64,000 bases of DNA from a bacterium DOLZORAL124_38_8 (GTDB taxonomy: Bacteria > Patescibacteriota > Gracilibacteria > UBA4473). Numbering within the stretch: the first letter of the stretch is position 1; each line of letters opens with the position of its first letter. Below, piece after piece: positions 3,601 to 61,492 of the stretch. The notes below the pieces were generated by a model that saw nothing but the letters and a program-made list of their open reading frames with translations, searched no databases and was not told the DNA's origin. The stretch is taken from the NCBI GenBank assembly GCA_002747745.1, contig PDQG01000004.1, positions 37,646 through 101,645 of the forward strand, in the 5' to 3' direction. The position numbers and the translations under genes were made by a program.

Positions 3601-4649
3601 TCATCAATTTTTGATACTTTCATACCAGGATAAATCAAATCAAAATTTGATTTAGGGAATCTTCCTTGACACCCTTTCCCACAACAGTTCATTTTTCCTT
3701 TTTCTCCAGTTTTATGATATTCAATAGTTGTTCCATCTTCGTATATCAAGGTAGTTCCTGTTTTTAGTTTTACCCCTAAATTTTTTGCAAGTTCATACAA
3801 CGTTGAATTATGACTCACCTCACTTTTAAGAGACTTATATTCGTTGCTTTTGAACCAATCTGTTACTTTCTTATTTAACGCTTTATTATTAGAATCAATT
3901 TTCACTTGAGTAGATTTTTTCCCATCAATAGAAATAATTTCTTTTATTCCCATATTTTTTAATTCATCTGATGAGAATTTAGACTCAAATTTCGCTTTAT
4001 CAAAAAACATTTCATACACACATTTTTCAGTCCACTTTTCAACGGTTTCCCCTTCTGTTGGAACCTTTATTGTTTCCTCATGTTCAACTAATACACCTCC
4101 AACAGTCTCTTGTCCGATGTCTAATGAATGGTCAACTTTAACTTTCTCTACTTCCTGCTGTTTTGCAATACAACTTCCGTCTAAACAGTCTTTTAATCGG
4201 TATTCTTTTAAAAGCATTTGGGCTTTTAATTTTTCTGTTCCAGTTAACTCTTTTAAATCATCCGCACTTTTAGGGTTCTCGGCCATATGAATATGCGCCG
4301 CCCCTGATTTATACTCAAAATAATATACCACAGTATCTTTTCCTTTTTTTACCGCAAATGATTTTCCATCATTATACAACAACTCTCCATCAGAAACTTT
4401 GGTACCTTTTTCCCCCTCTTTAAGATTATTTACAAAGTCAACCGCTTTTGTTAATTCTTTGTATACAGTTTCTTTATCAAGATTTTCCAGTCCTTTCATA
4501 GATTCTTGAAAAACTTCGTTTTGTGCTTTTGCAATATCTTTTCCTTGATCAACCCCCTCTGGATTCGAACTAGGGATTGTTTGCCACACAAACTGTGCCT
4601 TAGAAGTACGATTAAACTTGTCTGTAACTGTATTAAATAGATTTTTCAT
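699..4649 (-). CDS. Very large hypothetical protein (1316 aa), no recognisable family
   Basis: Uninterrupted 3.95-kb ORF, K/E/D-rich with no N-terminal signal peptide. It has one short hydrophobic/Gly-rich patch (..SPSFGAISTTDGLFGTATGLVNIF.. and ..FALPIASLCAGILHPF..) and an odd NCCGKGCQG motif. The reverse-frame ORFs inside it are short. Confidence 0.6.
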   Translation of the reverse strand: MKNLFNTVTDKFNRTSKAQFVWQTIPSSNPEGVDQGKDIAKAQNEVFQESMKGLENLDKETVYKELTKAVDFVNNLKEGEKGTKVSDGELLYNDGKSFAVKKGKDTVVYYFEYKSGAAHIHMAENPKSADDLKELTGTEKLKAQMLLKEYRLKDCLDGSCIAKQQEVEKVKVDHSLDIGQETVGGVLVEHEETIKVPTEGETVEKWTEKCVYEMFFDKAKFESKFSSDELKNMGIKEIISIDGKKSTQVKIDSNNKALNKKVTDWFKSNEYKSLKSEVSHNSTLYELAKNLGVKLKTGTTLIYEDGTTIEYHKTGEKGKMNCCGKGCQGRFPKSNFDLIYPGMKVSKIDENTLAITKQGVKEVKKTVLVETPGHTEYAFYKNGQKVDSQTVKNFITEYNKHNVDNPISLPVTQDVLKEIVDSGKATLKYSTIEERKVIKGGKQVDIDALTRVKDANGIRTEDEKDAYLKETQAGATESIDIYRNSMKNFEAEIKAATKAMSPSFGAISTTDGLFGTATGLVNIFLKDKIAGENPDVKAAIEANMPTYIDNFVQKQSGFMNSLSELIKAGKPVFKLIDRFALPIASLCAGILHPFDIYTSKKALAYNSENLKNRGDVVNKVNVYEEALKTNMKNRQHLGGLSLNVDVDAAYNELNKDLSGTVGEMSTEKVTEDGKEIEKLVGKDVMAKLGLAIDESGVIYAKEAAKMRKIVFHWFFDGRLSADGQRMKSLIEQLSHPIDPQSTMIERMEENQKRLGMLKNIIETARIETADDVLDRDVKKLIPDKNQQAELIKKLMDGTVKNTDLVKKVAALLSEWDAEDLAKIDFTKEQVNRVQEALKTGKYDKQVVGDAKEMLRSVFGWRYQSMNSKRLRGRHSMLHGYDEAARHMGDMIQNQRDLLAARYSIDGYKDETGEIDKAGALQHAAAFGFLESYVSETEYGTAEAQVIAQKLVKDFGLEEDATNVLAGYFAAGDSLKRAKYLSQHLLDLNPVLGVVKLETIKDVQSDALKNIMKVENSAIRECLLKCLEYASPEEYSNDWFLSVKSGKLPVMIPTAIWKKLDVTSQETLKQSNIGSGFGDPETITKTTTETVFNKELVPILGADFGGHVVADYLENETYSADGTTVEKTSAKTETVKQLSENRKARLTERYTRKLKRLEKRLGSSEKAFLDKARPNQKENLKALAGTKSEKEFLKGLIASDDSLRKLEPLNPSLENDSNLMVKNNSKQPEAISPTLTVEKVKEMSIDEALDLIPKGDAVIRLQSENSTYKTNNGVTEFNKAAYTENLTRNNLKAVSISQAKVEAGKVTQLIIKVEKIK

Positions 4650-12019: not shown

Positions 12020-14458
12020 TTATTGGTTAATCACTTGAATTCGTTTAAACCCAGGTGGAGATTGCTCAATAGCTTTTCGATCAAACCGAAGGATGAATGA
12101 GTACGACTTTTCTCGCCCTGTAGGAGAACTATCATCATTTTTACAGTTTCCAGATACAAAAGAACTAGCATTATACTCCCCCAACGGCAGACAGCTCTGC
12201 ATATCTAAATTTAAATTCCGTATATACAACAAATCATACTTTGGCGATATTAGTTGTGAACTACCCTTCGGCTCCATTCCCCATGGATGATATAAATACG
12301 GATCATTCGTATTCTTAGCAGCTCCCCCAACTGTATTCATCGTTAATAACGCTCCCACTAATCGCAATTGTTTATCTGAAGTTAAGTCAATATTATCTAC
12401 ATTCAAGTTAGATAAATTAACGGTACTAGTATTCACAAATCCTCCATCCGCAAAAAATGACCCGCGAATATTCTGTACCGTTGAATAAACAAAAATATTT
12501 CCTGTACTTGGCGGCACCGTTTGCGTGTCTGTATTAATTAAAATCACGCCAAATGAATCATTCGCTTCATTTCCATAATAAGTGTTATCAGCAATCAACA
12601 AGTTCCCATCAACAATTACCACCGTTTTTTTACCGCTTGGGAGTTTTCCTCCAATCTTTACATTCTTTTCCTTGACAATCAACACCCCATCAACTCCAAA
12701 CGGAGCATCTGGAGAAGTAGTTAGGTCTACGTTACTCTCTTTAATATTGTTTGATTCCCGCACTAATGCAAACGCGTTACGCGTAATATTTTCTCTTACA
12801 TCCGTTTGTGAAATTCCTGATAAAGCCTGTAAGTCATTCGATAAAAACTTCGTAGTCGTATCGCGTTTAATAACGGTTCCTTCTATATACACCCCTTTCG
12901 CTACATTAATTTGTCCAATTGAATTTCCCGCAAAATATCTCACCGTCTTTTTATTCTCCCCAATTTGAACATCATATTCAACAATTGATTGCAAATCAAA
13001 TTCTGGCATTAATTTATTATTTCCATCAGCCCCACTGCCACTTGGCATGTTGAAATTAAAAATATAATCAACGGATTTATTGTTTAACCCTAGGGCAAAA
13101 TAATTACTAGGATTTAAGGCATTCGAAAATTTACTAAAAATTCCATCTTTATTAAAACTCAAACCAACATGATACCCTGAATCATCCAAATATGAATGCG
13201 CAACTTCCTTACCAGCGGCTCCTGTTAAAGATAAATTGGACGGAAGCGTTCCATTTCTATCAATTTTGGCAAGAAGTTCTATTTTGTCATATTTAGTCGA
13301 GTCATCCTCAGCGATTTTTCCAGTCCGTCGTTCATAAGTTAATTCATCAGATAAATTAAAGAATCCACCTTTAAAATTACTCATTAAATTGTTTACCCTA
13401 TCCATATTGGGAACAAGAGATATCTTGATTCGCTGATTATCATACATATTATTGGCAAATTCATTCGCTCCTAATGGATTAAAAGTACCGTCCAATCTAT
13501 CACTATTTGTATCATCCCCCCCCGCTAAAGTTCCTGGTTGCAAGTTAATATTCAACAACACGGGGCGCTTAAACAGAATTGGTTGTTCTAACTCTTTCGT
13601 CTCTACAAGTGGAATTAGCGTTCCTGCGTCACCATTATTGGCTATATTAGGCACTTGTTTTACTAAAATTTTCAAGTTTTTGGCCACCTCTTCTGTCACA
13701 TTATTGATGTTTCTTAATGTTGGTACCCAAGAAACTAAGTCAATCGAAAACACTCCCTCATATCCTGTTACAGCGCTAATTGAACTATTCTTTAACAATT
13801 GATTATTCACCATTAATCCGTTTTTCAATGATAATCCTAAATTACCATCATCCGTTCTAAATAAAGCTTGTTGCTCCCTTGGAATCTCTACTTTAGCATT
13901 ACTAGCCTTATAAACCTTATTCCCATATGAATCTCTCAAAACAACGCCAGCTTTACATACATCCGAACCATCGGCATATTTACCCGTACAAGTATTAATC
14001 AACGTATCAATATTCTCTGCATCAATATCTCCCGGCATAATTTTAAAATTGAATGCCTTTTCAGCTTCATTTCCCACGGCATCCACTAATTTAACCGTTA
14101 TTTTATAGGTTCCCGCATTTTTGAAACACTGTTTTAATGTATCAGAATTACTATTTTGAATATCTATTTGAATGGTTTCAGCTGATCTTCGTGAGATTTT
14201 TCTGTCATCATCTTTAAATTTTGCCAAAACATCCTTTAATAATTTTGGATTAGTAAACAACTCAACCGCTGAATTTAAAACTGATTTCGTCTCTCCAAAA
14301 CAAGTAATTTCCTTTACCTCCGCCTTTTCATCAGGCGTAAAATTAATTTGCATGGTAGATTTAGTTAAATCTATCCCCGAAGTAGCCATACCATGTACCA
14401 ACCACGGTGCCCCCAACAAACACGCTCCCAACACAAACGTTCGCCAAAATTGTTTCAT
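12020..14458 (-). CDS. Large secreted/surface protein (812 aa), function unknown
   Basis: Signal peptide MKQFWRTFVLGACLLGAPWLVHG, N/S/T/G-rich beta-type composition, and an Ig-like-looking N-terminal module (..YKITVKLVDAVGNEAEKAFNFKI..). It lies directly upstream of the ATPase gene on the same strand. Confidence 0.6.
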   Translation of the reverse strand: MKQFWRTFVLGACLLGAPWLVHGMATSGIDLTKSTMQINFTPDEKAEVKEITCFGETKSVLNSAVELFTNPKLLKDVLAKFKDDDRKISRRSAETIQIDIQNSNSDTLKQCFKNAGTYKITVKLVDAVGNEAEKAFNFKIMPGDIDAENIDTLINTCTGKYADGSDVCKAGVVLRDSYGNKVYKASNAKVEIPREQQALFRTDDGNLGLSLKNGLMVNNQLLKNSSISAVTGYEGVFSIDLVSWVPTLRNINNVTEEVAKNLKILVKQVPNIANNGDAGTLIPLVETKELEQPILFKRPVLLNINLQPGTLAGGDDTNSDRLDGTFNPLGANEFANNMYDNQRIKISLVPNMDRVNNLMSNFKGGFFNLSDELTYERRTGKIAEDDSTKYDKIELLAKIDRNGTLPSNLSLTGAAGKEVAHSYLDDSGYHVGLSFNKDGIFSKFSNALNPSNYFALGLNNKSVDYIFNFNMPSGSGADGNNKLMPEFDLQSIVEYDVQIGENKKTVRYFAGNSIGQINVAKGVYIEGTVIKRDTTTKFLSNDLQALSGISQTDVRENITRNAFALVRESNNIKESNVDLTTSPDAPFGVDGVLIVKEKNVKIGGKLPSGKKTVVIVDGNLLIADNTYYGNEANDSFGVILINTDTQTVPPSTGNIFVYSTVQNIRGSFFADGGFVNTSTVNLSNLNVDNIDLTSDKQLRLVGALLTMNTVGGAAKNTNDPYLYHPWGMEPKGSSQLISPKYDLLYIRNLNLDMQSCLPLGEYNASSFVSGNCKNDDSSPTGREKSYSFILRFDRKAIEQSPPGFKRIQVINQ

Positions 14459-15691: not shown

Positions 15692-15820
15692 GGCTTCGTG
15701 TTGACATCGACCTACTTTCCCAAGGCTATCCCCAAGTATCATCGGCGCTGGTAGACTTAACTTCTGAGTTCGGAATGAGATCAGGTGTACCCCTACCGCT
15801 ACAGACATCAACACGAAACC
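15692..15820 (-). rRNA. rrf: 5S ribosomal RNA
   Basis: The reverse complement contains the conserved ..CCGAACTCAGAAGTTAAG.. and ..GCGCCGATGATACTTGGGG.. blocks. The terminal helix GGTTTCGTGTTGA pairs with TCAACACGAAGCC. Ends are approximate. Confidence 0.85.
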
Positions 15821-15926
15821 TTCTTATGTCGGTTTCTTTTACTTTCGAAAAGAGAATATTCATTCTTATTAAACAAAATTGTGATAACAAATTTGCGATT
15901 TTGATTGATTTTAAAGCTTGAATTTC

Positions 15927-15973
15927 CTTATGACTTGTTTACCGAAAGATAAACAAATGAATTCAAGAATAAA
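15927..15973 (-). other. 3' half of the 23S rRNA processing (RNase III-type) stem
   Basis: cttatgacttgtttaccgaaagataaacaaatgaattcaag is largely complementary to 18849-18889 on the other side of the 23S gene. Confidence 0.65.
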
Positions 15974-18848
<2,875 letters not shown>

Positions 18849-18889
18849 TATTCTTGAATTTGTTCATCTTTCAATAAACAAGTCATAAG
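18849..18889 (-). other. 5' half of the 23S rRNA processing stem
   Basis: tattcttgaatttgttcatctttcaataaacaagtcataag pairs with 15927-15973. Confidence 0.65.
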
Positions 18890-26174: not shown

Positions 26175-28907
26175 CTAAAACTTATAGTTTCTTTTAATAA
26201 AATCTGCTGAATCATTAGCCTGTCTATCATATTTTTTCAATTCTGATTTATAATTCTTTACAACATCTCGTAGAGAATTTGAATTATTCACAAATAATTG
26301 CATATCGACCGCATTAAAATCATTATATTCCAGACGTTTATTTAAATGCTTCAACTCTAAAAATAAATTATTCATTTTGGGATTATTCAACCCATGACCT
26401 TCATAAAAATCATTGTTTTTCATATTGTTTGCCACCATATCAGTCATTTCCCCAATTTCTTTCTTATTTTGTGCAAAATCTAACTCTAATTTCGACATAC
26501 GATTGAACTGCTCTTGATAAGTTTTATACGCCTCTTTTAAGCGTCCCATTTCAATATTAATTGCATCAATATTTCCACTTTGTTTAATTTGATCAAATGA
26601 TTTCATTCTAAATTGTAATTCATCAATCACTGTATCAAAATTTCCAACAGCTCTAGCAAGTTTTTCACTGTATCCATCATTAATTCTCATTTTTTCAACC
26701 ACTCGACGAGCCTGACTTAAATGCTCGGGATTTACTTTCGAAACAGGTTTCTTTTCAGGCGTTCGTGTTTTCTTTTTTAAACGAGCTAATCGTTCAATTT
26801 TATTCGCATTAAAGTCAACTTCATACCGAGATACTCCCTTTATTTCTTGTACTCGCCAAACACCAGAAGTTTTAGTTTCACCTAACAAACGAACCTCATG
26901 AGATTTACCAGACGAATCTAAAAATCGCACAAAATTAGATTCTTTTAACCGATTAAGTTTGGCTTCCGAGTTAACTGAATCCTTATTAGCCGTTTCTTCT
27001 ATTGGTTGTTGTTTTTTAGTGGTCGTTTTTTTATTTTCAGTTTTTACGGCTGTTTCTTTTTGCAATCGCACGCCAGCTTCTTGAGAAATCTCTACCACAT
27101 TCCCAGTGGAATCTGTTTTCTTAACTGTTTGCTTTTTATATGCTTCTGCTCCCACACGATTAGACTTTGTCACGTGCTCCACAATCGTCCCATCTTTTTG
27201 AATTTTAAATCGTTCTCCAGTTTTTAATTCCACAATTTGTGTAAATTGTGCTTCATGCACACCATAAACTTTTTTAAAAACAGATTGCTCTTCTATAGTA
27301 ATAGTTTTCCCTCCACGAACTAACGAAAATCCCGATTCCGTTCGAGTAACAGAATAAGAAATATCTTTAACAGTTTTTGTAAAAGATTCTCCCACTTTCA
27401 ATTCCTGAATTTGTTCTGTCGCTGTTAAGGTTTTTATATCTAACACTTTTGTTTTTACGCCTTCTAAAGATTCCTTAAACGCCGCTAAATCCTTTTTAGT
27501 AACCCCATTTTTTTCTAAGTTTTTCAATGTTTGCCCCATTTCGGCCACTTGCGTTTCAAGTGTATTCAAACGATTCACATCAATGTCACCTGCTCGCATT
27601 GAATCTAAGTTCAAATTAATTTCAACCGCTTTCATTTTCCCTTCGGCAACCACTTCTTTTTGACGTAATGTAGCTATTTCTGCTTCCAAACTAGTCACTT
27701 TCGATGTTTTTTCATTTAATTCTGACTGCAATCGATTTACTAAATCAAGATGCCCTTTTTCTTTGGCTTGGGCTAATTTGTCGGCCGTATCTCTCTGCGA
27801 TTTTAAGGCTTCATCAAATTGATTTTTCCTTTCAGATAATTGCGTTTTCACTTTTTCGAATTCAACTTTCATTCCGTTAAATTCTCCCTCCAAAGTTTTG
27901 TAATTTTGACTTACTTCTTTGAATTGATTCTTCCACTTATCTTTTTTGGCTTTTAATTTTTTATTGGTTGCTTTTTCGTCAACTAATAACTGTTCCTTCT
28001 CAGCAATCAAACTTTTATCTGCGTCTGCATCCTTTTTCAATTGTGCAATCTCAGTTTCTTTTGCTTGAATACTTTTATTTGATTCCGACAATTGTCCTTC
28101 CAATTTTTCCACTTTCATTTTAGCTTCTTCTATTTCCAACCGTTGATTCGCTAAAGCTTCATCAAAAACAGCAGTATGTCTTCTCAACTTTCCTTCTAAA
28201 TCTGTCACCTTCAACTCGGCCTGAATGGCAGGATTAGAAGCAATGAAATCCGCATCTGACATTTCATTATACGCCTTTTGGGCCGCTAATTTTTCTGGAT
28301 CAACTTCTGGCTCTTGTTTTTTAGGTTCAGGATTTTCCATTGTATCATTTTTTTCCGTTCCTGATTTAGATTTATTTTTTGATGCAGAAGTTCGTTTCCC
28401 TAACTTCTCAACTTTTAACTTTTCAATCGTAATAATAGTTTTCCCCACTTTTAATTCGTTCCCCACCAATAATTTTTCATTCAATGGAACATTTCTTTTC
28501 ACAACTTTTTTCGTTCCTTTTCTTCCATGTTCAATCACATCTACTAACGTCTCTCCCTGTTTATTTTTAGTAATTTCTATTTCATATTTTTTTGAAATTC
28601 GAATTTTATCTCCCACGGTCAGATTCTTTCTGGCAATACCAGATTTTCTGTAATCTGCACCCTCCTTCAAAATATTTTTCAATTTTTTTCCTTTCTTTAC
28701 TTCCAACAAATTCAATTTTGATTCTTTTATTTGTATTTCGGTTAAGATTCTTTCGGCTTTTGTATCACCTGATTTTCTTAAAGATTTCAAGACTTTTTTG
28801 ACTGACTTAACTCGCCCCAACAGTTCATTTTGTACGGTTTGAATACTTTCATTTACTAATTTTTGTTCCGCTAATCGAGCTTTCCGTTTCGCTTCTGACA
28901 ATCCCAT
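26175..28907 (-). CDS. Large coiled-coil protein (910 aa), function unknown
   Basis: Long K/E/Q-rich heptad-like segments (..EIEEAKMKVEKLEGQLSESNKSIQAKETEIAQLKKD..) are interspersed with beta-rich modules. There is no signal peptide. The 5' end overlaps the upstream ORF by 59 nt in the +1 frame. Confidence 0.55.
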   Translation of the reverse strand: MGLSEAKRKARLAEQKLVNESIQTVQNELLGRVKSVKKVLKSLRKSGDTKAERILTEIQIKESKLNLLEVKKGKKLKNILKEGADYRKSGIARKNLTVGDKIRISKKYEIEITKNKQGETLVDVIEHGRKGTKKVVKRNVPLNEKLLVGNELKVGKTIITIEKLKVEKLGKRTSASKNKSKSGTEKNDTMENPEPKKQEPEVDPEKLAAQKAYNEMSDADFIASNPAIQAELKVTDLEGKLRRHTAVFDEALANQRLEIEEAKMKVEKLEGQLSESNKSIQAKETEIAQLKKDADADKSLIAEKEQLLVDEKATNKKLKAKKDKWKNQFKEVSQNYKTLEGEFNGMKVEFEKVKTQLSERKNQFDEALKSQRDTADKLAQAKEKGHLDLVNRLQSELNEKTSKVTSLEAEIATLRQKEVVAEGKMKAVEINLNLDSMRAGDIDVNRLNTLETQVAEMGQTLKNLEKNGVTKKDLAAFKESLEGVKTKVLDIKTLTATEQIQELKVGESFTKTVKDISYSVTRTESGFSLVRGGKTITIEEQSVFKKVYGVHEAQFTQIVELKTGERFKIQKDGTIVEHVTKSNRVGAEAYKKQTVKKTDSTGNVVEISQEAGVRLQKETAVKTENKKTTTKKQQPIEETANKDSVNSEAKLNRLKESNFVRFLDSSGKSHEVRLLGETKTSGVWRVQEIKGVSRYEVDFNANKIERLARLKKKTRTPEKKPVSKVNPEHLSQARRVVEKMRINDGYSEKLARAVGNFDTVIDELQFRMKSFDQIKQSGNIDAINIEMGRLKEAYKTYQEQFNRMSKLELDFAQNKKEIGEMTDMVANNMKNNDFYEGHGLNNPKMNNLFLELKHLNKRLEYNDFNAVDMQLFVNNSNSLRDVVKNYKSELKKYDRQANDSADFIKRNYKF

Positions 28908-31179
28908 TTGGAATATCAGAATCTTTAATTTTATATCGTTCTAATTTTCGCACCATTCTTAAATCGCGTTGGGCAATTTTTTTCAAACTTGGTTTCCAAA
29001 ATCGTCTTCGAGATACTTTTAATTCATTTAATCTGTACGATTTATTCAAAGACCGTTCAACCGAAAAGGCTAACTTTTGGAACCGCAATCGAAGCGGACG
29101 CCAAACTTTTAGTCCCAAAACTTTTCTTGGTTTTATTAACACCGATTTCATTTTCCCTTTTGAATATTCAATCGACACATCATTGTTTGTATCAACTTTT
29201 TCAGGTTTTTGTTTTGGCTGTTTCTTGGTTTTCAAATTTGTTGGACCTTCCGTCACCGAGAGTTTCATTTCTCGCAAAATATTTTGAGCCGTAGTTGAAC
29301 CAGTAGCATCAACATTTCGAGCTTTCAAAGCGCCCAATTCTGCCTGATTCACTTGCCCCTCCAAAATATCTCGTATATCAAATTTTTCTCCTCTCTCGGC
29401 CGCATCATATATTTTACGAGCCTTTTTAGGATTTAGTCGTCCGTCGTTTACTCGGTTTGACAAAAGTCTTCTCAAGGCATTAATTTTCGCATTATTTTTT
29501 ACCAGATTACCATTCAAATCTCTCCATTCTGATGCGGGAATTTTTACTTCAGCCCCAGCTCCACTATACAACGTACACAAGTCTTCCGCCGTTTCGGAAA
29601 CTCGCTGTGGAACGGTTTTTTGATCAACTGAGTTCTTAATAACTTCTGATTTTTGTTTCTTAGCTTTTTCTGGTTTTGTTTTTGATGCTTCTGAATCAGT
29701 TTCTTCAGTCTTTGTTTCAGATTTATTTTCTTCTGATTTTTTTGTTTTGCTGGCATCCGTTGAATTTGATTCCGATTTTTCACCTTTTATTTTTTGCGCC
29801 GCATTAGCATTTTTTTTGTTTCCCCATTGATTCATTCGCTCCATTGGTCGCCGCATAGCACTCCCACTGATACGCAATGCCCCAGCTGCAACAAATGCGT
29901 GGAACCATTCATCCCCACTCGCAAAGGTCTCGAACACTTCATTTATATCACCTTTATAAGTTCCATTTTGAACCGCCGCAATTAATACCATAGCCGTAGC
30001 TTCAGCCGAAAGATTTACTCCATCAGCGGTTAGATTTTTAATTCCATTTAATAATTTTTTATCTGCCACATTTGGCAACAAGTTTTTTAATTTAGTCCCA
30101 ACTCCAATTTTGTGAACCATTTTAAACACGCCAAGCGTAGCGGCTGTCCACATAACACGAGTTCCAATTTCTCCCAATCCATTTGCATCAAAAATCGTAT
30201 CTACTTCTTTATCCAAAACACTTCCCATTCCTTCCATTAAGGCTCCGTGCATTCCTTCAAAGGCCAAGGCTTCGACCCCTAATCCAACAAATCCACGAGC
30301 TCCATTAGCAATACGACCAATTCTTCCTAATCGGGCAGCTGATAGCCCCATACGAGCCACGACCGAACGAGCGCCGGCCGACAAACCAAACCTAGCCACA
30401 TTCGCGAACCCACCAGAAACAATAATCAGCGGTGCATTAATAACTAATTCTTCGAATACGGTATCCCAAGTCTCATCTGCCCAATTAAAAGTCCCAATTC
30501 CTGCCGATTTAACATATTGATCCCAAAATTCTGTTTTATCAGCTGGAATACGATTTTCTAAATCATTATCGTAAATATATTCAGCAATTTTTTCGTTTCT
30601 TCCGTGCTGATAGGTTTCCATAATCAAAGCATCAACATAATTTTTCGCTTGTTTTTGCGCTTCTTTACCCTGAATTTCTGGATTTTGCTCTACTATTTGC
30701 CCCGTCAACTTTTGTACATCAATTTGAGAACTTACTTTTTTCTTCGCTTCTTCGTACACATCTTGCTGTACTTCAATTGTTTCTCCATTTGAATTTTTCA
30801 ATTTAACTAATGAGAATTTCTCTTTTTCTAATTTTCCAAAAGTTTCGGTCAGTTCTTCTACCGCTAAATGACGTGCAGTTTCGTAATGCCCACCAGTTGT
30901 TTCTGTATCTCTTAACTTTTTAACGACTAACGCCTTAAATTTCAATAAATCAGATTTACTGTTAATTTTTGATACATTAAAAGCCTCTTGCGTTCCAGCC
31001 GTTCTATCTAAATCAAACCAACTATCCTTAAATACATCATCGACAGCATTTTTCTCTTCTGAACCAGCCGGTAATAATTCATTAAATATATCCGAAAAGT
31101 TCTCCCCTTTTAAAATTCGAGACTTAATATTTTCTTTGTTGCTATTATATTTGTTCATCGCCGAACGAACACCAGCCAA
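28849..31179 (-). CDS. Large hypothetical protein (776 aa) with central Gly/Ala-rich hydrophobic block
   Basis: The track start is TTG; the first ATG is at 31158. Residues ~245-440 (nt 29860-30447) read ..VINAPLIIVSGGFANVARFGLSAGARSVVARMGLSAARLGRIGRIANGARGFVGLGVEALAFEGMHGALMEGMG.., followed by a K/E/S/T low-complexity linker. Confidence 0.55.
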   Translation of the reverse strand: MAGVRSAMNKYNSNKENIKSRILKGENFSDIFNELLPAGSEEKNAVDDVFKDSWFDLDRTAGTQEAFNVSKINSKSDLLKFKALVVKKLRDTETTGGHYETARHLAVEELTETFGKLEKEKFSLVKLKNSNGETIEVQQDVYEEAKKKVSSQIDVQKLTGQIVEQNPEIQGKEAQKQAKNYVDALIMETYQHGRNEKIAEYIYDNDLENRIPADKTEFWDQYVKSAGIGTFNWADETWDTVFEELVINAPLIIVSGGFANVARFGLSAGARSVVARMGLSAARLGRIGRIANGARGFVGLGVEALAFEGMHGALMEGMGSVLDKEVDTIFDANGLGEIGTRVMWTAATLGVFKMVHKIGVGTKLKNLLPNVADKKLLNGIKNLTADGVNLSAEATAMVLIAAVQNGTYKGDINEVFETFASGDEWFHAFVAAGALRISGSAMRRPMERMNQWGNKKNANAAQKIKGEKSESNSTDASKTKKSEENKSETKTEETDSEASKTKPEKAKKQKSEVIKNSVDQKTVPQRVSETAEDLCTLYSGAGAEVKIPASEWRDLNGNLVKNNAKINALRRLLSNRVNDGRLNPKKARKIYDAAERGEKFDIRDILEGQVNQAELGALKARNVDATGSTTAQNILREMKLSVTEGPTNLKTKKQPKQKPEKVDTNNDVSIEYSKGKMKSVLIKPRKVLGLKVWRPLRLRFQKLAFSVERSLNKSYRLNELKVSRRRFWKPSLKKIAQRDLRMVRKLERYKIKDSDIPNGIVRSETESSISGTKISK

Positions 31180-40645: not shown

Positions 40646-42307
40646 TTACGCTACCAAGTTTAAATAACATGCTTCGCAGAGAATTCGTCTGTCATATTTG
40701 GTTGGCCAAGAAGTTTGAATAGACTTCTGACATTTTCCACAAGTACCGTCTCTAAGTTCTCCATCAAACGGCAACCAACGGAAGTTTTCTTGGATGCGAG
40801 CCATATAAAAACTATGTGGCAATGGTACTTTTAACTTTTTGGCAAAAGTAATATCGTGCTTGGTTATTTGGAACGGTCGTCGATACGATTCATCCCAAAA
40901 TATTTGCTGTAATAACCACTCGGTTCTTTCTTCCGTTAATTCGTCTACCGTGTCTGGTATTTCGGTAATTTCCGCCGTTTTTACAGGTTCTCGGTGTAAT
41001 GGTTCACAAGTTCTAAAGCCGAGTGTTTCTTGTTCGGAATTGGATAACGGCCAGTAAAACGAACTCCAACTTTCGTTGTATGGATTGGGCGCAAAATGAC
41101 CAGGAAAGAATTGTCCCCATTCGCCCGCTTGTTTCATATGAGCGATAATTTTATCTTTGAGCGCAAAATATTCATCTTCAGAATACGGTTTATTAAATAT
41201 ACAATATTTTTTCCCTACTAATCCACAACACCCAAAACAATTCTCACACTGAAAACAATAAGCACAATAATCTATAAATTGGCACTCGGTACACGCAAAA
41301 GAAAAGAAATTATCATAGGTCGAAAACTGACAAGTTGTTGAATAATAATTTCGTTCTCCAATGGTACAACCAATCGTATCTAAATAATGGCTGCTTTCAT
41401 AAGCTCTGATGGCATTTACTGAATCAGTAATTTGTTGGCTAAAATAAATATTTTCAGCCTTATTATTTTCAGATTGATAGTTTCCCGTACAATCTTCTGA
41501 CTTATCTATACTTTGGGCTCGATGAAAGGCTAAATTTGTCATCATATCGGCAAAAAATTTTTTGGCTTTAGTATATGATTTTTGGGAAGATAAATTCCAA
41601 GCCGCTATTTTGGTTTCGTATTCACTTTGGGTTAATTGTTTATTCCCGAAGCAATATTGTTTGTTTCGCAGGTTAAAACAAAACATACAATCGGTACAAT
41701 TCCGACAATCATACAAAAACGCTGAATTTTGCACCTTCCGACAATTTAATACGTACTTGGAATCAAAACAATCGTAGCAATTTATATCATCGTTACATAA
41801 CTCACTATTAATAGAAAAAATTGAGCCCTGAGAATCACGAACGAGTGAACGATAACAGTATTGAGCATCTTCTGATTTGTAAATAGAATGTGCTAAATAA
41901 CAATTTTTAGAGTACCAACAATCATCCGTATACTCACAGTTTTCATTTTTATTTCCGGTGCGATGAGGAATTGGACACTGTTTAAATAATGCCCACGCTT
42001 GGTCAAAAAATGGTTGGGTAAAATCAAAATCAGCTTGTGATGGATTATTTTCTTCTAACCAAACACTTCTCTGCCATACAGGATACTCACATTCAGGACG
42101 AAAAATAGAAATGATAGGTTTTCCTGTTCTATCACATTTTCTACTATGTAGATTCCAATGTGGCCAAAACGATCCTAACTGTCGGAACCGATATTTTGGC
42201 TTTATCATTGGCAATGAAGCACCAAAGCCAAATTTCGCTCTTAGTTCTTGTTCTAAATCTGATACTTCAAAGGTTTCTCCCGATAACGCACACTTTACTT
42301 TGTTCAT
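40646..42307 (-). CDS. Cysteine-rich protein of unknown function (about 553 aa) between rpsL and rpsG
   Basis: About 34 Cys by hand count. Dense CxxC/CxC runs occur (..NCYDCFDSKYVLNCRKV..YDCRNCTDCMFCFNLRNKQYCFGN.. and ..ACTECQFIDYCAYCFQCENCFGCCGLVGKKYCIFN..), and the C-terminal zinc ribbon is CGKC..(17)..CEAC. The internal ATG at 42307 was chosen as start. Confidence 0.6.
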   Translation of the reverse strand: MNKVKCALSGETFEVSDLEQELRAKFGFGASLPMIKPKYRFRQLGSFWPHWNLHSRKCDRTGKPIISIFRPECEYPVWQRSVWLEENNPSQADFDFTQPFFDQAWALFKQCPIPHRTGNKNENCEYTDDCWYSKNCYLAHSIYKSEDAQYCYRSLVRDSQGSIFSINSELCNDDINCYDCFDSKYVLNCRKVQNSAFLYDCRNCTDCMFCFNLRNKQYCFGNKQLTQSEYETKIAAWNLSSQKSYTKAKKFFADMMTNLAFHRAQSIDKSEDCTGNYQSENNKAENIYFSQQITDSVNAIRAYESSHYLDTIGCTIGERNYYSTTCQFSTYDNFFSFACTECQFIDYCAYCFQCENCFGCCGLVGKKYCIFNKPYSEDEYFALKDKIIAHMKQAGEWGQFFPGHFAPNPYNESWSSFYWPLSNSEQETLGFRTCEPLHREPVKTAEITEIPDTVDELTEERTEWLLQQIFWDESYRRPFQITKHDITFAKKLKVPLPHSFYMARIQENFRWLPFDGELRDGTCGKCQKSIQTSWPTKYDRRILCEACYLNLVA

Positions 42308-42397
42308 CAAAGAAATAATAACACAGAAAAAAATTTTTCTAAAAAAAATATCCACCAACTGGGCGGATACTTCTTTTATTATCACATGTATTAATTC

Positions 42398-58107: not shown

Positions 58108-58335
58108 TTAGAAAAATCTTCCAAGAGTAGTACTTAAAAATGCTTGCGGTGTACCAGTAAGCCACATAATAGAAACCATACTCACGCCAATGCCAAATAA
58201 TTTAACAAAGGTGTAGGTTCCACCACTTCCTATGTACCGTTCACACCAATCTATATCGCCAATATTTTGTACGATAATCTCAGCTTTTACGGTAATAAGT
58301 ATTCCCAAGGGAATCCCTAACAGAGGAAAAATCAT
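58108..58335 (-). CDS. Small hydrophobic protein (about 75 aa)
   Basis: Two predicted TM helices (..PLLGIPLGILITV.. and ..GIGVSMVSIMWL..). It ends 10 nt upstream of tRNA-Ala. Confidence 0.4.
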   Translation of the reverse strand: MIFPLLGIPLGILITVKAEIIVQNIGDIDWCERYIGSGGTYTFVKLFGIGVSMVSIMWLTGTPQAFLSTTLGRFF

Positions 58336-58466
58336 TTTCAAAAACAAAAAGAACTTTTAAAGCTTGACGATACTAATAATGACAAATTCTTTGTCAAAAA
58401 AGAATTGTATTTTTTTTGTATTTTTGATATAATAGTGAGAATTTATGCCTTATAAAGTACGTAATC

Positions 58467-60059
58467 ATGAAGAAATTAATTGTTGTGAGTCTGTTAAGTT
58501 TTTCCCTCTTGTTTAATGGAAATGAAATATTCGCAACGGGCGGACAACTAAATTATGAGAGTACCAGTGCTACGGGAAAAAGTTTCGGAACGACTGGAAA
58601 TACCGATTCTATGTTTAATAACATGCAAAAAACTAACGATGATTTATTTGAAAAAACTGAGTTTTACAAAAAGGATGATAAGGAAAAAGTTGAATATTTT
58701 AAAAACAAACTAAAAGAATCACAAAAAAATACAGAAGCATTCAACACAAACTTCTATGAAAAAAATAATGATGAAAAATATAAGGATTATAAAGAATATA
58801 GAAAAAACAAAGTTGAACCAAAAGAGGAGTCTAGAAAAAAGTTCTTATTAATTCGTTTTGTGGGACTAAATAAACAAACCATAAATAAAATAGCAATCAA
58901 TCAAATTGATTCACTAGAACGAGATAAGAAAATAGGAGAAAAAATAACCGTAAACAATAGTTATTCGTACCAAGGAAAAGAAAATGTTTTGGGAAAATGG
59001 ATAAAGACAGATATTAATGTCCCCGCTGGAGATAATGCAATTTGGATAAAAATAGAAGACTTAGAAAAAAAAGATGAGAATAAAGTGTTGCTAAAAATTA
59101 CGCATCCAGCTTATTACCAAAAGATAATTGATACAGCAAAAGAATTAAAAAAAACAATGCCTGAAGTAACAGTAAACTTAATTCCCAAAGACGCATCAAA
59201 CACTGGGAACAAAAGTCCTCACCTAACTTTAGGCGAAGCCGGATATGACCCCATTTTAAAAGATAACCTCATCCATCGTGCTGGAGATGGATTTACTGGA
59301 TTCGACGATAAACATTCAGTGGGAAACGAAGATAAAATTTTAAAAAGCTTTTTCAGCAAAAAAGGCAGTGGTATTATGGTAACCGTTTTACGCGTTTTAG
59401 GAACCATCGGAATCCTTTATTTGTTGATTGGCGGAATTCGTTATATTTTTACCAATGGAGACGAAGAAAGTGCCGAAAAAGCCAAAAATCAAATTGTGTG
59501 GGCGTTAGTGGGATTAATAATCCTTTCATTAGCTGAATTTATTGGGTTTGAATTTATTAATCCATATGAGAAAGATATATTAGGAACCAATGAGGTGGTC
59601 AATAGTTTGAAAGATAAAGTTGAACAAATCATTCGCGTATTAGAGTACGCCGTGGGAGGATTATTCTTGGTAAATGGTTCAATTAGTGCCTATGATTTAA
59701 TTACCTCTCGTGGACAAGACGAAAACTTAGATAATGAAAAGAATTTTGTTCAAACATTTATTTGGGGAGCCGGATTTATTTTATTCGCCGAGGTAATTGT
59801 GCGAATTGTTGCCAGCGATATTAGTCGATCAGAACAAATAAATATGCTTTCTGGTGAAATTGGCGGGATTATAAACTTCATCTTGACTTTCTTTGCTGGG
59901 GCTTCCGCTTTGATGTTGATTATTTCCGCCTTGTACTATGTTGTTTCTCTGGGTGATGACGAACGAGTCTCAAGTGCCAAAAATATGATTCGAAATTCCG
60001 CCATTGCCTTTGTAATTGCCTTCTCTAGTTATGTATTAGCTCAATTTATGATTGTATAA
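58467..60059 (+). CDS. Secreted protein with three C-terminal VirB2/TrbC-like (T4SS pilin-type) helical hairpins
   Basis: Signal peptide MKKLIVVSLLSFSLLFNGNEIFA and a ~280-aa K/E/N-rich ectodomain. Three TM-loop-TM units follow (nt 59364-60056), e.g. LGTIGILYLLIGGIRYIFTNGDEESAEKAKNQIVWALVGLIILSLAEF and AGASALMLIISALYYVVSLGDDERVSSAKNMIRNSAIAFVIAFSSYVL. Confidence 0.65.
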   Translation: MKKLIVVSLLSFSLLFNGNEIFATGGQLNYESTSATGKSFGTTGNTDSMFNNMQKTNDDLFEKTEFYKKDDKEKVEYFKNKLKESQKNTEAFNTNFYEKNNDEKYKDYKEYRKNKVEPKEESRKKFLLIRFVGLNKQTINKIAINQIDSLERDKKIGEKITVNNSYSYQGKENVLGKWIKTDINVPAGDNAIWIKIEDLEKKDENKVLLKITHPAYYQKIIDTAKELKKTMPEVTVNLIPKDASNTGNKSPHLTLGEAGYDPILKDNLIHRAGDGFTGFDDKHSVGNEDKILKSFFSKKGSGIMVTVLRVLGTIGILYLLIGGIRYIFTNGDEESAEKAKNQIVWALVGLIILSLAEFIGFEFINPYEKDILGTNEVVNSLKDKVEQIIRVLEYAVGGLFLVNGSISAYDLITSRGQDENLDNEKNFVQTFIWGAGFILFAEVIVRIVASDISRSEQINMLSGEIGGIINFILTFFAGASALMLIISALYYVVSLGDDERVSSAKNMIRNSAIAFVIAFSSYVLAQFMIV

Positions 60060-61492
60060 TGAAAAAATTTTACGGAGCGGTTTTGTCAATTTTATGTTTG
60101 TGTTTCATGCCCACGGTTCAGGCCGTAAATGAGGGGGGCGACCTTCCTGCTTGCCCAACGCGGATTAAACCTTGTAAAACGTTAGGTATTTTTAAGCGAT
60201 CTTCTGAATTTCGTCGCTATCAAGCCACCGCTTTGAAAATGTGTGGACGTTCACACCGAGCATTATCGGCTTTAGAAAGCATAAATACTGATTTATCAGA
60301 AGCCGAAAAATCAAGCATCAATAAAGAATTAAAACAAAAATTCATCTTTGGCGTTACCATTTTTAATAATACGGTTGACGGTTGTAAGAAAAAGAAATTC
60401 GAACAATCCGCGCAAGTTTTTGAAACGATTTATGACGATATTGAGCACTTTGTGATTGCCAAAATAAATCGTTCTAATTCAACAGCTACCACAAAAACAT
60501 TAAAGGACAAATTTATCGCTGGCATTGGAGATGACGAACCATTAAAACAACGATTTCAGGGGAAATTATCTTCGAGTCAATTTTCTTCTATTCCCTCATC
60601 TAAAAACATTTTCTCTTCTGGCGATGGAGAAATATTAGGTCACAAGTCTAGGCTAAAAGATTATACTGGAAAAGGAGAAACGGGAAATGACCAACTGCGA
60701 AGCACACTAAATAATTTGTTTGCGGGCGTAAAAAAACTACTCATTCCTATTAGTATTTTCCTCATCGTTTTTGCGGGCGTACAATTATTTATGATAAGCC
60801 GTGATAGCGTGTCGGAGGAAATTCCCAAAAAACGAAACCAAATTTTCAATATCATTATTGGGTGGACTGTCTTCTCCCTAGCCTTTACGGTCGTAGATTT
60901 TGTTATTTTTGGAAACGGAAAAGAAGACTTTATTTTCCGAGATTCATTTGAGGGAAGTGAGTATCAAATAAATACGGAACGTTCACTAGAATTTGCACGT
61001 CGAATCTTTGGTGAACTGGAAGGAATCGTTGATTTCCTCCTAACATTGTTCGTTATCGTCTCTATTCTCTTCCTTATTATTAGTTGTATTCGACTCATTT
61101 TTGGTGACGATGAAAGTTATGAAGCAACAAAAAAACAAGTCATGCAAAGTATTATTGCTTCTGTTGTAGCTATTTCGCTAAAACCATTATTAGCCCTCTT
61201 CTACCAAAATGGACAAATCGTCAAACCAAATGCAACTTCGGTCATTGAGTTTGCCCTCAAATGGGCGGACTATGTCTTAGGATTTATTGGCCTCATGGCG
61301 ACCCTGTCACTCATTTATGGCGGTATAAGACTAATTATTGATTATGGAAACGGAGAAGCCATGGAAGAAGCTAAGAAAATTATTCAGTACTCCGTTATTG
61401 GAATCGTATTAGCATTCTCAGCTTGGACGATTGTAAACTTCTTTGCTACGCCTGGCGACCAAATTAGTGCCTTTGTTTTAGGGTTTGCATAA
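60059..61492 (+). CDS. Paralogous secreted protein with three VirB2/TrbC-like helical hairpins
   Basis: Signal peptide MKKFYGAVLSILCLCFMPTVQA and a Cys-containing ~190-aa ectodomain. Three hairpins follow (nt ~60701-61453), e.g. VSILFLIISCIRLIFGDDESYEATKKQVMQSIIASVVAISL and MATLSLIYGGIRLIIDYGNGEAMEEAKKIIQYSVIGIVLAFSAW. The ATG overlaps the upstream stop by 1 nt. Confidence 0.65.
   Translation: MKKFYGAVLSILCLCFMPTVQAVNEGGDLPACPTRIKPCKTLGIFKRSSEFRRYQATALKMCGRSHRALSALESINTDLSEAEKSSINKELKQKFIFGVTIFNNTVDGCKKKKFEQSAQVFETIYDDIEHFVIAKINRSNSTATTKTLKDKFIAGIGDDEPLKQRFQGKLSSSQFSSIPSSKNIFSSGDGEILGHKSRLKDYTGKGETGNDQLRSTLNNLFAGVKKLLIPISIFLIVFAGVQLFMISRDSVSEEIPKKRNQIFNIIIGWTVFSLAFTVVDFVIFGNGKEDFIFRDSFEGSEYQINTERSLEFARRIFGELEGIVDFLLTLFVIVSILFLIISCIRLIFGDDESYEATKKQVMQSIIASVVAISLKPLLALFYQNGQIVKPNATSVIEFALKWADYVLGFIGLMATLSLIYGGIRLIIDYGNGEAMEEAKKIIQYSVIGIVLAFSAWTIVNFFATPGDQISAFVLGFA

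What the first reader, a model, noticed from the sequence alone, without database searches (positions are those of the whole stretch)
58467..61492. Tandem paralogs, each fusing a secreted domain to three VirB2/TrbC-like pilin hairpins
Both proteins have a cleavable-looking signal peptide and a divergent ectodomain. Each then has six TM helices arranged as three repeats of hydrophobic helix, G-G-(I/L)-R-x-I..(D/G)(D/E)E..(A/S)(A/E)K(K/N).I, hydrophobic helix.

That unit looks like the T4SS pilin (VirB2/TrbC-type) hairpin, which normally occurs once in a ~100-150-aa protein. A triplicated hairpin covalently linked to a large extracellular domain, present twice in tandem, is not a described pilin architecture as far as I know.

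The genes sit beside a tRNA cluster and far from the VirD4-like ATPase at 9094-11880. They could form a membrane pore or stub carrying a surface-exposed head domain, for example for host-cell contact in an episymbiont.
Basis: partly seen in the sequence, partly recalled or inferred. Interest (0 to 1): 0.7.

Follow-up and report, generated by a model that had tools for sequence, protein, structure and literature searches.

The report
Triple-hairpin pilin-like membrane protein pair
Two adjacent genes each encode an exported membrane protein made of three fused copies of the hairpin that normally forms a conjugation (type IV secretion) pilin; they belong to a widespread, apparently undescribed family that occurs as a fixed gene pair with a small partner gene in uncultured ultra-small bacteria.

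Summary
ORFs 58467-60059 (530 aa) and 60059-61492 (477 aa) each have a signal peptide, a non-conserved N-terminal region and six long hydrophobic helices forming three hairpins. Five of the six hairpins individually reach Pfam's cut-off for T4SS_pilin (PF18895), and the second protein also passes TrbC/VirB2.

They are not recent tandem paralogs. An exhaustive profile search found at least 216 protein clusters at E<=1e-30; 121 of the best 152 have exactly three hairpins. These split cleanly into an A type (like the first gene) and a B type (like the second).

In 14 loci from different organisms A is always followed directly by B, usually with overlapping or near-touching stop and start codons. 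A conserved ~78-aa two-helix protein (S; here 58108-58347, minus strand) lies just upstream wherever sequence exists.

The large ectodomain is optional: the median N-region is 59 aa, and some relatives carry a subtilase or a beta-sandwich domain.

No VirB4, VirB6 or coupling protein lies within 10 kb in any locus. Charge bias supports N-terminus outside and hairpin loops inside.

My best reading (about 0.4) is a heteromeric, membrane-embedded, pilin-derived ring or base of the dispersed Patescibacterial T4SS. This is a new variant of a known kind.

The parts
58108..58347 (-). S: small (about 75-79 aa) two-helix membrane protein with the motif GSGGTYTF.KLFG...MWLTG. It is divergently transcribed from P1 and is the conserved third gene of the module.
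   Evidence: ORF. Homologues lie directly upstream of the A gene in 11 loci. No Pfam, NCBIfam or PHROG hit. Not related to the pilin hairpin by hhalign.
58348..58466 (.). 119-bp divergent intergenic region. It holds a minus-strand promoter-like site (TTGACA-16-TAGTAT, 58397-58370) and a plus-strand TG-extended -10-like TGATATAAT about 35 nt upstream of the P1 ATG.
   Evidence: These are consensus matches only and are not shown to function.
58467..60059 (+). P1 = A-type triple-hairpin protein (530 aa; NCBI CSB37_00920).
58467..58535 (+). P1 signal peptide (residues 1-23, cleavage predicted after IFA).
   Evidence: Read directly from the sequence; hydropathy; helix 2-24.
58536..59369 (+). P1 N-terminal extracytoplasmic region (residues 24-301). 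It is K/E/N-rich and mostly low-confidence. The juxtamembrane motif with D261 and N267 is conserved in the A type.
   Evidence: pLDDT below 50 for most of residues 22-250; no Pfam hit; conservation.
59370..59558 (+). P1 hairpin 1 (residues 302-364).
   Evidence: PF18895 40.4 bits alone; hairpin HMM.
59616..59813 (+). P1 hairpin 2 (residues 384-449). It contains E442, acidic in 94% of A-type proteins, inside the fourth helix.
   Evidence: No Pfam hit alone, but 81 bits on the family hairpin HMM (built partly from P1 and P2, so a lower bound of independence). Helices 376-413 and 418-449. E442 conservation.
59856..60053 (+). P1 hairpin 3 (residues 464-529), running to the C-terminus.
   Evidence: PF18895 26.6 bits alone. 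NCBIfam Mbov_0395 pilin-like model 46 bits for the whole protein against a cut-off of 40, best stretch 458-529.
60059..61492 (+). P2 = B-type triple-hairpin protein (477 aa; NCBI CSB37_00925). Its start overlaps the P1 stop by 1 nt.
60059..60124 (+). P2 signal peptide (residues 1-22, cleavage predicted after VQA).
   Evidence: Read directly from the sequence.
60125..60724 (+). P2 N-terminal extracytoplasmic region. It forms a helical bundle (helices 48-78, 81-108, 111-138, 142-156, 160-172), followed by the B-type conserved (R/K)DYT...G..QFR stalk motif.
   Evidence: AF2 pLDDT about 80-92 for the bundle. No Pfam or PDB fold match. Only weak similarity to the N-region of P0017. Stalk motif.
60725..60910 (+). 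P2 hairpin 1 (residues 223-284).
   Evidence: PF18895 28.3 bits alone; helices 209-244 and 248-284.
61013..61204 (+). P2 hairpin 2 (residues 319-382).
   Evidence: PF18895 27.4 bits alone; helices 306-348 and 351-380.
61256..61447 (+). P2 hairpin 3 (residues 400-463).
   Evidence: PF18895 48.5 bits and TrbC/VirB2 24.4 bits alone; helices 392-427 and 432-463.

Best explanation
P1 and P2 are the A and B subunits of a conserved three-gene module, S-A-B.

Shown:
- Each of A and B is Sec-exported and anchored by three covalently linked, position-specialised VirB2/T4SS_pilin-type helical hairpins.

Supported by indirect evidence:
- Topology is N-terminus out and C-terminus out, with the three short acidic-pair-then-Lys turns on the cytoplasmic side.
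- A length-variable N-terminal region and two linkers face outward.

Inferred:
- A and B are made in equal amounts by translational coupling.
- They assemble side by side, probably with S, into a heteromeric arc or ring of pilin hairpins in the cytoplasmic membrane.
- This assembly acts as a pre-assembled, membrane-resident pilin platform or short conduit for the dispersed type IV secretion apparatus of this Patescibacteria-like lineage.
- That role would be comparable to the pilin pool plus the polytopic VirB6 platform of canonical systems.
- The variable N-terminal heads are exposed on the cell surface.
For: - Homology to T4SS pilins is significant for the whole proteins and for five of six single hairpins. 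P2 and several relatives also pass the classical TrbC/VirB2 model. P1 passes NCBIfam's Mycoplasma ICE pilin-like conjugal transfer model.
- The family is large and the triple form dominates: 216 clusters at E<=1e-30, and 121 of the best 152 have three hairpins.
- A and B types separate bimodally. Each of the six hairpin positions has its own signature, scoring about 100 bits against itself and 13-63 bits against the others. This argues for non-equivalent positions in one fixed assembly.
- A is followed by B in all 14 loci examined. The junctions overlap by 1 or 4 nt, or leave 3-4 nt, in most loci. S lies upstream in all 11 loci where sequence exists, while the flanking genes differ.
- Topology: signal peptides, K+R density twice as high in hairpin loops as in linkers, and extracellular-type domains (subtilase, CarboxypepD_reg-like) at the N-terminus of relatives.
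- AF2 gives six long helices of 30-43 aa with 2-4-residue turns, at pLDDT 80-95.
- The window carries a coupling-protein-like ATPase.
- PMC12102498 reports that in class Gracilibacteria VirB6 homologues are absent and T4SS genes are not clustered with virB4. A lack of linkage is therefore expected in such lineages, and a polytopic platform protein is unaccounted for.
Against: - No VirB4, VirB6 or coupling protein lies within 10 kb of the module in any locus. The neighbours are housekeeping genes.
- I could not test genome-wide co-occurrence with VirB4.
- No A-B or S interaction was modelled.
- Foldseek found no significant structural relative. The best, non-significant matches to designed alpha/alpha toroids are only a hint of a side-by-side arc.
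- The placement of the genome in or near Patescibacteria rests on one relative's record title (Candidatus Peribacteria) and on my recollection. NCBI lists it as unclassified Bacteria.
Confidence: 0.4

Rival explanations
1. The proteins are a T4SS-independent surface-display anchor or membrane scaffold. The pilin hairpin has been co-opted as a stable six-helix anchor. The S-A-B complex organises or decorates the cell surface by holding variable extracytoplasmic domains (helical bundle, protease, beta-sandwich), with no role in secretion.
For: - The module sits among housekeeping genes, with no T4SS ATPase within 10 kb in any locus.
- N-terminal domains are swapped freely: subtilase, CarboxypepD_reg-like, a helical bundle, or nothing.
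- Other PF18895 proteins are fused to or flanked by PKD-repeat surface proteins.
Against: - Most members have only about 59 aa ahead of the hairpins, so display of a domain cannot be the core function.
- An anchor-only role does not explain the strong position-specific conservation of all six hairpins, of the cytoplasmic turns and of the linkers, or the obligatory A/B/S trio.
Confidence: 0.28
2. The proteins are true pilus subunits. A and B are pre-linked pilin trimers, or polyprotein precursors cut between hairpins, that polymerise into an extracellular conjugative-type filament. The N-terminal domains would then decorate the outside of the filament.
For: - The hairpins match pilin models.
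- In solved F-type and T-type pili both pilin termini are on the outside and the loop faces the lumen (established knowledge). Head-to-tail linkage through external linkers is therefore geometrically possible.
- Patescibacteria carry arrays of 2-11 divergent pilin genes, and fusion of such an array would give this architecture (PMC12102498).
- Arrays of single-hairpin pilin genes lie 5-7 kb from S-A-B in several loci.
Against: - Extracting a six-helix unit that carries up to about 800 aa of N-terminal domain into a filament has no precedent.
- The linkers show no small-x-small signal-peptidase motif in P1 or P2 (read directly from the sequence).
- The six hairpin positions are strongly non-equivalent, unlike the interchangeable subunits of a helical polymer.
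- There is no linkage to the assembly ATPase.
Confidence: 0.2
3. The proteins form a heterodimeric 6+6-helix transporter or ion channel that is unrelated in function to pilins.
For: - The architecture is twelve helices from two related genes plus a small subunit.
- A near-invariant acidic residue (E442) lies in the fourth helix of A-type proteins, and D280 lies at the end of the second helix of B-type proteins.
Against: - There is no match to any transporter family in Pfam, NCBIfam or PDB.
- There is no adjacent ATPase or binding protein.
- The helices are 30-43 aa long with 2-4-residue turns, which is pilin-like rather than transporter-like.
- E442 lies towards the outer end of its helix, not mid-membrane.
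Confidence: 0.07

Closest known systems
VirB2/TrbC/TraA conjugative (T4SS) pilins: Pfam PF04956 and PF18895
   Same: Signal peptide, then two long hydrophobic helices joined by a short charged turn. HMM matches are above the curated cut-offs. The inferred topology (termini out, loop in) is the same.
   Different: - Three hairpins sit in one chain of 477-530 aa, rather than one hairpin in a protein of about 100-150 aa.
- The members form fixed A/B groups with a small partner gene.
- They are not next to virB4 or other T4SS genes.
- They carry optional large N-terminal domains.
VirB2-like pilin gene arrays of Patescibacteria (Ca. Southlakia epibionticum ML1, Ca. Nanosynbacter lyticus TM7x; PMC12102498, PMC12857230)
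   Same: Multiple divergent pilin hairpins (about 25% identity) are encoded side by side in ultra-small bacteria whose T4SS resembles that of monoderms.
   Different: - In those arrays the pilins are separate small genes, 2-11 per array, often near virB4.
- Here the hairpins are fused in one reading frame, always three per protein, in an A-B pair away from virB4.
Mbov_0395 family pilin-like conjugal transfer protein of Mycoplasma ICEs (NCBIfam NF045849)
   Same: P1 scores 46 bits against a cut-off of 40. P2 scores 33 bits, below the cut-off. This is a pilin-type hairpin in a wall-less monoderm conjugation system.
   Different: That model is a single 80-residue unit encoded on a mobile element. 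The genes here are chromosomal, not on an identifiable element, and have no match in plasmid or phage collections.
VirB6/TrbL/PrgH polytopic T4SS membrane proteins, including 'extended' VirB6 with large hydrophilic domains
   Same: This is a functional analogy only: a polytopic membrane protein, sometimes with large hydrophilic domains (PMC12857230). VirB6 is reported absent from class Gracilibacteria (PMC12102498).
   Different: No TrbL/VirB6 family appears among the Pfam hits for P1 or P2 at E<=1. The helices here are clearly pilin-derived repeats.
Duplicated or triplicated proteolipid (c/K) subunits of V-type and A-type ATPases
   Same: This is an architectural analogy from established knowledge. 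A ring-forming helical hairpin is fused two, three or more times in one polypeptide, with positions that become non-equivalent.
   Different: There is no detectable homology: no ATP-synt_C hit. The context and the turn motif are also different.

Membership tests
T4SS pilin superfamily (PF18895 T4SS_pilin / PF04956 TrbC-VirB2) | Profile HMM match above the curated gathering score | tested here: met
   PF18895 scores 54.4 bits (P1) and 79.5 bits (P2) against 26.6. PF04956 scores 31.0 bits (P2) against 27.9. Five of six hairpins reach 26.6 bits or more on their own.
T4SS pilin superfamily (PF18895 T4SS_pilin / PF04956 TrbC-VirB2) | Signal peptide followed by a hairpin of two hydrophobic helices with a short polar turn; termini outside, loop inside | tested here: met
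   Hydropathy; AF2 helices and 2-4-residue turns; K+R density 0.156 in loops against 0.074 in linkers. The topology is inferred and has not been measured.
T4SS pilin superfamily (PF18895 T4SS_pilin / PF04956 TrbC-VirB2) | Small single-hairpin protein (about 100-150 aa) | tested here: not met
   Three hairpins per chain, in proteins of 530 and 477 aa.
T4SS pilin superfamily (PF18895 T4SS_pilin / PF04956 TrbC-VirB2) | Encoded with the T4SS assembly genes (virB4 and others) | tested here: not met
   No VirB4, VirB6 or T4CP lies within 10 kb in any of the loci examined. The only T4SS-like gene in the window is the T4CP-like ATPase 47 kb away. PMC12102498 reports dispersed T4SS genes in class Gracilibacteria, so this criterion is weak for such lineages.
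T4SS pilin superfamily (PF18895 T4SS_pilin / PF04956 TrbC-VirB2) | Polymerises into an extracellular pilus | not testable with these tools
   Needs microscopy or biochemistry.
Patescibacterial VirB2-like pilin arrays | Two to eleven separate small pilin genes in tandem | tested here: not met
   The hairpins are within single uninterrupted ORFs in more than 120 representative clusters. No separate single-hairpin gene was found in the window with the family hairpin HMM.
VirB6/TrbL | Match to the TrbL/VirB6 profile | tested here: not met
   That family is absent from the Pfam hits at E<=1.
Known membrane transporters | Match to any transporter family by sequence or fold | tested here: not met
   Only sub-threshold chance-level hits. 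The PDB sequence profile and Foldseek gave nothing significant.

The most novel reading that the evidence does not exclude
S-A-B is a self-contained, previously unrecognised envelope machine. It would be a closed ring built from 6+6 covalently linked pilin hairpins plus a small clamp subunit. Such a ring would either replace the missing VirB6 channel or platform of the T4SS in Gracilibacteria-type Patescibacteria, or form a new kind of surface conduit or organelle for host contact. On this reading, pilin arrays evolved into fixed-stoichiometry polyproteins in the same way that ATPase proteolipids did.
Probability: 0.2. Interest if true: 0.8.

Novelty: new variant of a known kind. Interest (0 to 1): 0.58.

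Why it matters
The T4SS is the one apparatus shown to be essential for the epibiotic life of a cultivated Patescibacterium, and its pilin-like genes are numerous and unexplained.

A conserved pair of covalently triplicated pilins, with a dedicated small partner and encoded away from the ATPases, means that part of this 'pilin' repertoire is probably not a simple filament subunit. It offers a concrete candidate for the polytopic platform that homology searches fail to find in some classes.

It also gives a clean evolutionary case of a hairpin array becoming a fixed-stoichiometry polyprotein.

Finally, it supplies defined targets for structure prediction, Tn-seq and cryo-ET: three genes and a variable surface head.

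Tried and rejected
- **Word-indexed homologue searches.** Searches with P2, P1 and an 81-sequence profile returned only 2-4 hits each, because hydrophobic words saturate the candidate cap. The exhaustive representative search was needed.
- **Cluster look-up for names or taxonomy.** Ten relatives gave no organism names.
- **The search for related loci.** It failed with broader alignments because no stretch was conserved enough. Narrow alignments gave 1 genome locus and 14 metagenome loci.
- **Structural relatives.** The PDB sequence profile and two Foldseek searches gave nothing significant. I did not treat the designed-toroid matches (E 0.04-0.3) as evidence.
- **Mobile elements.** tblastn against plasmids and phages found no match, and PHROGs gave no hit, so a mobile-element or phage origin was rejected.
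- **S as a seventh hairpin.** hhalign probabilities were 21% or lower, so this was rejected.
- **Order of duplication events.** I tested whether the triplication predates the A/B split. Hairpin 3 clearly, and hairpin 1 probably, are positionally orthologous. Hairpin 2 is ambiguous.
- **ORF or assembly artefact.** This was considered and rejected, because the same architecture recurs in more than 120 independent clusters.
- **Literature.** I found no description of multi-hairpin pilins and no entry for this genome in the supplements of PMC12102498.
Full report
**1. The observation**

The P1 stop and the P2 start share one base, TAATG. Both proteins are identical to NCBI hypothetical proteins CSB37_00920 and CSB37_00925 of 'bacterium DOLZORAL124_38_8' on a 263-kb contig. 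NCBI lists that organism as unclassified Bacteria. From memory, and not verified here, this dolphin-mouth genome was proposed as Candidatus Fertabacteria within the candidate phyla radiation.

Each protein starts with a signal-peptide-like segment. Hydropathy finds six hydrophobic segments in P2, and five clear ones plus one weak one in P1. AlphaFold2 predicts six long helices of 30-43 residues, paired into three hairpins with turns of 2-4 residues. In the membrane part pLDDT is 80-95.

Pfam T4SS_pilin (PF18895) matches P1 at 54.4 bits and P2 at 79.5 bits, against a cut-off of 26.6. P2 also passes TrbC/VirB2 (PF04956) with 31.0 bits against 27.9. Scanned one at a time, five of the six hairpins reach the PF18895 cut-off, with E from 6e-6 to 9e-13. 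P1 hairpin 2 does not. It is nevertheless recognised by a hairpin HMM built from the family (that HMM includes P1 and P2).

The six hairpins align with each other, the only gap being a two-residue insert in the first P2 hairpin. Family-wide, every hairpin has an acidic pair at the turn and a conserved Lys 5-7 residues later. The 'GG(I/L)RxI' part is literal in only two of the six hairpins.

**2. What the proteins belong to**

I built a profile of the three-hairpin region (alignment A2) and ran it against 1.84 billion representative proteins. It gave 31,663 hits at E<=1e-3, 2,148 at E<=1e-10 and 216 at E<=1e-30.

| Hairpins per protein | Number among the best 152 |
|---|---|
| 3 | 121 |
| 4 | 13 |
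| 5-10 | 14 |
| 2 (these are the four shortest hits, 162-213 aa, so probably fragments) | 4 |

The typical member is 300-340 aa: a signal peptide, an N-region with a median of 59 aa, then three hairpins running to the C-terminus. Only 32 of 123 three-hairpin proteins have an N-region of 120 aa or more.

The large 'ectodomain' of P1 and P2 is therefore an optional insert, not a family trait. Other members carry a subtilase (P0013, 1047 aa) or a CarboxypepD_reg-like beta-sandwich (P0009, P0040, P0016) at that position. P2's N-region is predicted as a confident helical bundle with no fold relative. P1's is K/E/N-rich and mostly below pLDDT 50. N-regions are barely related, even between close homologues.

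**3. Not recent tandem paralogs but an old A/B pair with a third gene**

P1 and P2 share only about 23% identity over the hairpin region. Scoring all family members against P1-like and P2-like profiles gives a clean bimodal split into an A type (about 58 clusters) and a B type (about 52). The proteins with 4-10 hairpins fall in between.

Each of the six hairpin positions has its own conserved signature. Profiles score about 100 bits on their own position and 13-63 bits on the others. A-hairpin 3 pairs best with B-hairpin 3 (61-63 bits). A-hairpin 1 scores best on B-hairpin 1 (34 bits), though in the other direction B-hairpin 1 scores no higher on A-hairpin 1 (28) than B-hairpin 2 does. Hairpin 2 is ambiguous. 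The triplication is therefore old and probably predates the A/B split.

In every locus I could read, an A gene is followed directly by a B gene: the window (= L014), L001 (= L003), L002, L004 (= L017), L005 (= L006/L007), L011 (= L012), L013, L015, L016, L018, L019, L020, L022 and L023. One exception of detail is L011, where a 216-aa transposase-like gene sits between A and B. L003 is titled Candidatus Peribacteria.

Junctions overlap by 1 or 4 nt, or are 3-4 nt apart, in most loci. That fits translational coupling and equal stoichiometry.

I also found a third conserved gene. It encodes a ~78-aa two-helix protein (S) with the motif GSGGTYTF.KLFG...MWLTG. It lies directly upstream of A in all 11 loci where upstream sequence exists, mostly in divergent orientation. 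In the window it is at 58108-58347 on the minus strand. S has no Pfam, NCBIfam or PHROG match and is not a pilin hairpin.

The flanking genes differ between clades:

| Locus or clade | Flanking genes |
|---|---|
| This window | tRNAs and a DinG-like gene |
| Peribacteria locus (L001/L003) | YCII |
| One clade (L004, L005, L018, L022, L023) | MutY-like, PfkB, FtsK, RecG |

The trio is held together while its surroundings change.

**4. Topology**

Several lines agree:
- Both proteins have signal peptides.
- Lys+Arg density is 0.156 in the intra-hairpin loops against 0.074 in the inter-hairpin linkers.
- The C-terminal tail is almost free of basic residues.
- Relatives carry domains of secreted type at the N-terminus.

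Together these place the N-region, both linkers and the C-terminus outside, and the three turns in the cytoplasm. This is the canonical orientation of a membrane-inserted VirB2 pilin, repeated three times.

**5. Context and link to type IV secretion**

The window is ordinary chromosome. It holds 23S and 5S rRNA, tmRNA, RpoC, RelA, DnaG, ComEC and Pgi. Its only T4SS-like gene is a distant coupling-protein-like ATPase at 9094-11880, 47 kb from the pair.

No VirB4, VirB6 or coupling protein lies within 10 kb of S-A-B in any locus. This includes 32 flank proteins of five further loci scanned in bulk and the 10 kb beyond the window's right end. The hairpin region has no match in plasmid or phage collections.

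This weakens a T4SS assignment but does not exclude it. The survey of 3,035 Patescibacteria genomes (PMC12102498) reports that in class Gracilibacteria the T4SS genes are not clustered with virB4. It also reports that VirB6 homologues are absent from that class, 'suggesting extreme sequence divergence'. In several loci, arrays of 2-3 single-hairpin pilin genes lie 5-7 kb from S-A-B.

**6. Mechanism**

Shown, or supported by indirect evidence:
- Pilin homology (shown).
- Three specialised hairpins per chain (shown).
- A conserved S-A-B module with tight A-B coupling (shown).
- An N-out, C-out six-helix topology (inferred from charge bias and domain content, not measured).
- A variable outward-facing N-region.

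Inferred:
- A and B, probably with S, form one heteromeric assembly in which the hairpins pack side by side as an arc or ring in the cytoplasmic membrane.
- This assembly serves as a pre-assembled pilin platform or short conduit for the dispersed T4SS. That role would be comparable to a pilin pool plus the VirB6 platform.
- The N-terminal heads are exposed.

I put this at about 0.4. The rivals are:
- A T4SS-independent surface anchor or scaffold (0.28). It is favoured by the housekeeping context and by domain swapping. It is disfavoured because most members have almost no head domain, and because all six hairpins, the turns and the linkers are strongly conserved.
- True polymerising pilus subunits or a pilin polyprotein (0.2). 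This is geometrically possible, because both pilin termini lie on the pilus exterior in solved structures. It is disfavoured by the non-equivalence of the six positions, by the absence of signal-peptidase-like motifs in the linkers, and by N-domains of up to about 800 aa.
- A 6+6-helix transporter or channel (0.07). A near-invariant Glu in helix 4 of A-type proteins (E442) and an Asp at the end of helix 2 of B-type proteins (D280) are noted, but no transporter similarity exists.

**7. Comparison with what is known**

The proteins are members of the T4SS pilin superfamily by sequence. They fail two descriptive criteria of classical pilins: a single small hairpin, and linkage to virB4.

The nearest described situation is the tandem array of 2-11 separate, divergent VirB2-like pilin genes in Patescibacteria. 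That includes the essential six-gene array of Ca. Southlakia epibionticum (PMC12102498; PMC12857230). Here the array is fused into polypeptides of fixed copy number and forms a fixed heterotypic pair.

A useful analogy from established knowledge, though not a homology, is the duplication and triplication of hairpins in V-type and A-type ATPase proteolipids.

I found no paper describing multi-hairpin pilins. The searchable library is incomplete, and domain-architecture databases may already list repeated PF18895 domains without comment.

**8. Verdict**

This is a real, conserved and apparently undescribed architecture: a new variant of a known kind. Interest is 0.58. The fold and superfamily are known and the function is unproven. 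Even so, a T4SS or Patescibacteria specialist would be surprised by a fixed trio built from triplicated pilins and encoded apart from the machinery, and the finding gives directly testable targets.

Noticed in passing
window 58108-58347 (-): A conserved ~78-aa two-helix protein (S) with the motif GSGGTYTF.KLFG...MWLTG. It has no family assignment and lies directly upstream of the A gene in all 11 loci with sequence there.
   Followed up: yes
L010:10001-15328 (contig CDLKIH010000037.1): A 1775-aa protein with 10 pilin-type hairpins (PF04956 and PF18895 hits). It sits on a contig that also encodes ribosomal protein L39e, so the contig is probably archaeal. Multi-hairpin pilin proteins may therefore not be confined to bacteria.
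   Followed up: partly
L008:9925-16481: An 820-aa protein with 8 hairpins is followed by a 155-aa pilin, a 383-aa pilin-PKD fusion and a 718-aa PKD-repeat protein. This is a different multi-hairpin lineage linked to surface-adhesin-type domains. No T4SS ATPase lies within 10 kb.
   Followed up: partly
L011:178-5048: A B-type protein carries an N-terminal subtilase (Peptidase_S8) domain and totals 1047 aa. Here a 216-aa gene with a faint Y1 transposase hit is inserted between A and B.
   Followed up: partly
L004:15794-16622; L005:18487-18864; L018:15395-16871; L022:15969-17473; L023:11747-12731: Arrays of 1-3 single-hairpin pilin genes (125-185 aa) lie 5-7 kb downstream of S-A-B. In the loci with gene calls they sit next to a full-length FtsK and RecG, within a syntenic block that starts S-A-B then MutY-like. 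No such array was found within the window or in the 10 kb beyond it.
   Followed up: partly
window 9094-11880 (-) and 12020-14458 (-): A T4SS coupling-protein-like ATPase of 928 aa has an N-terminal half of about 460 aa with no family hit. Next to it is an 812-aa ORF with no Pfam or NCBIfam hit. This could be a diverged T4SS pair.
   Followed up: partly
window 15699-18851 (-): 23S and 5S rRNA genes are present, but no 16S rRNA gene appears anywhere in the 64-kb window. The rRNA operon therefore appears to be split.
   Followed up: no
window 699-4649, 26175-28907, 28849-31179, 40646-42385 (all -): Four large ORFs (1316, 910, 776 and 579 aa) have no Pfam hit and no NCBIfam hit near any curated cut-off.
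   Followed up: partly
window 59616-59813 (P1 residue E442); window 60896-60898 (P2 residue D280): An acidic residue lies inside the fourth helix in 94% of A-type proteins, usually followed one turn later by Arg. An Asp lies at the outer end of the second helix in 98% of B-type proteins. Their role is unknown.
   Followed up: partly
models of P1 (58467-60059) and P2 (60059-61492): For the P1 model, whose N-region is poorly predicted, the best Foldseek matches are non-significant (E 0.04-0.3, TM 0.24-0.30). They are designed alpha/alpha toroid repeat proteins with three hairpin repeats per subunit. This is compatible with a side-by-side arc but is not evidence for one.
   Followed up: no
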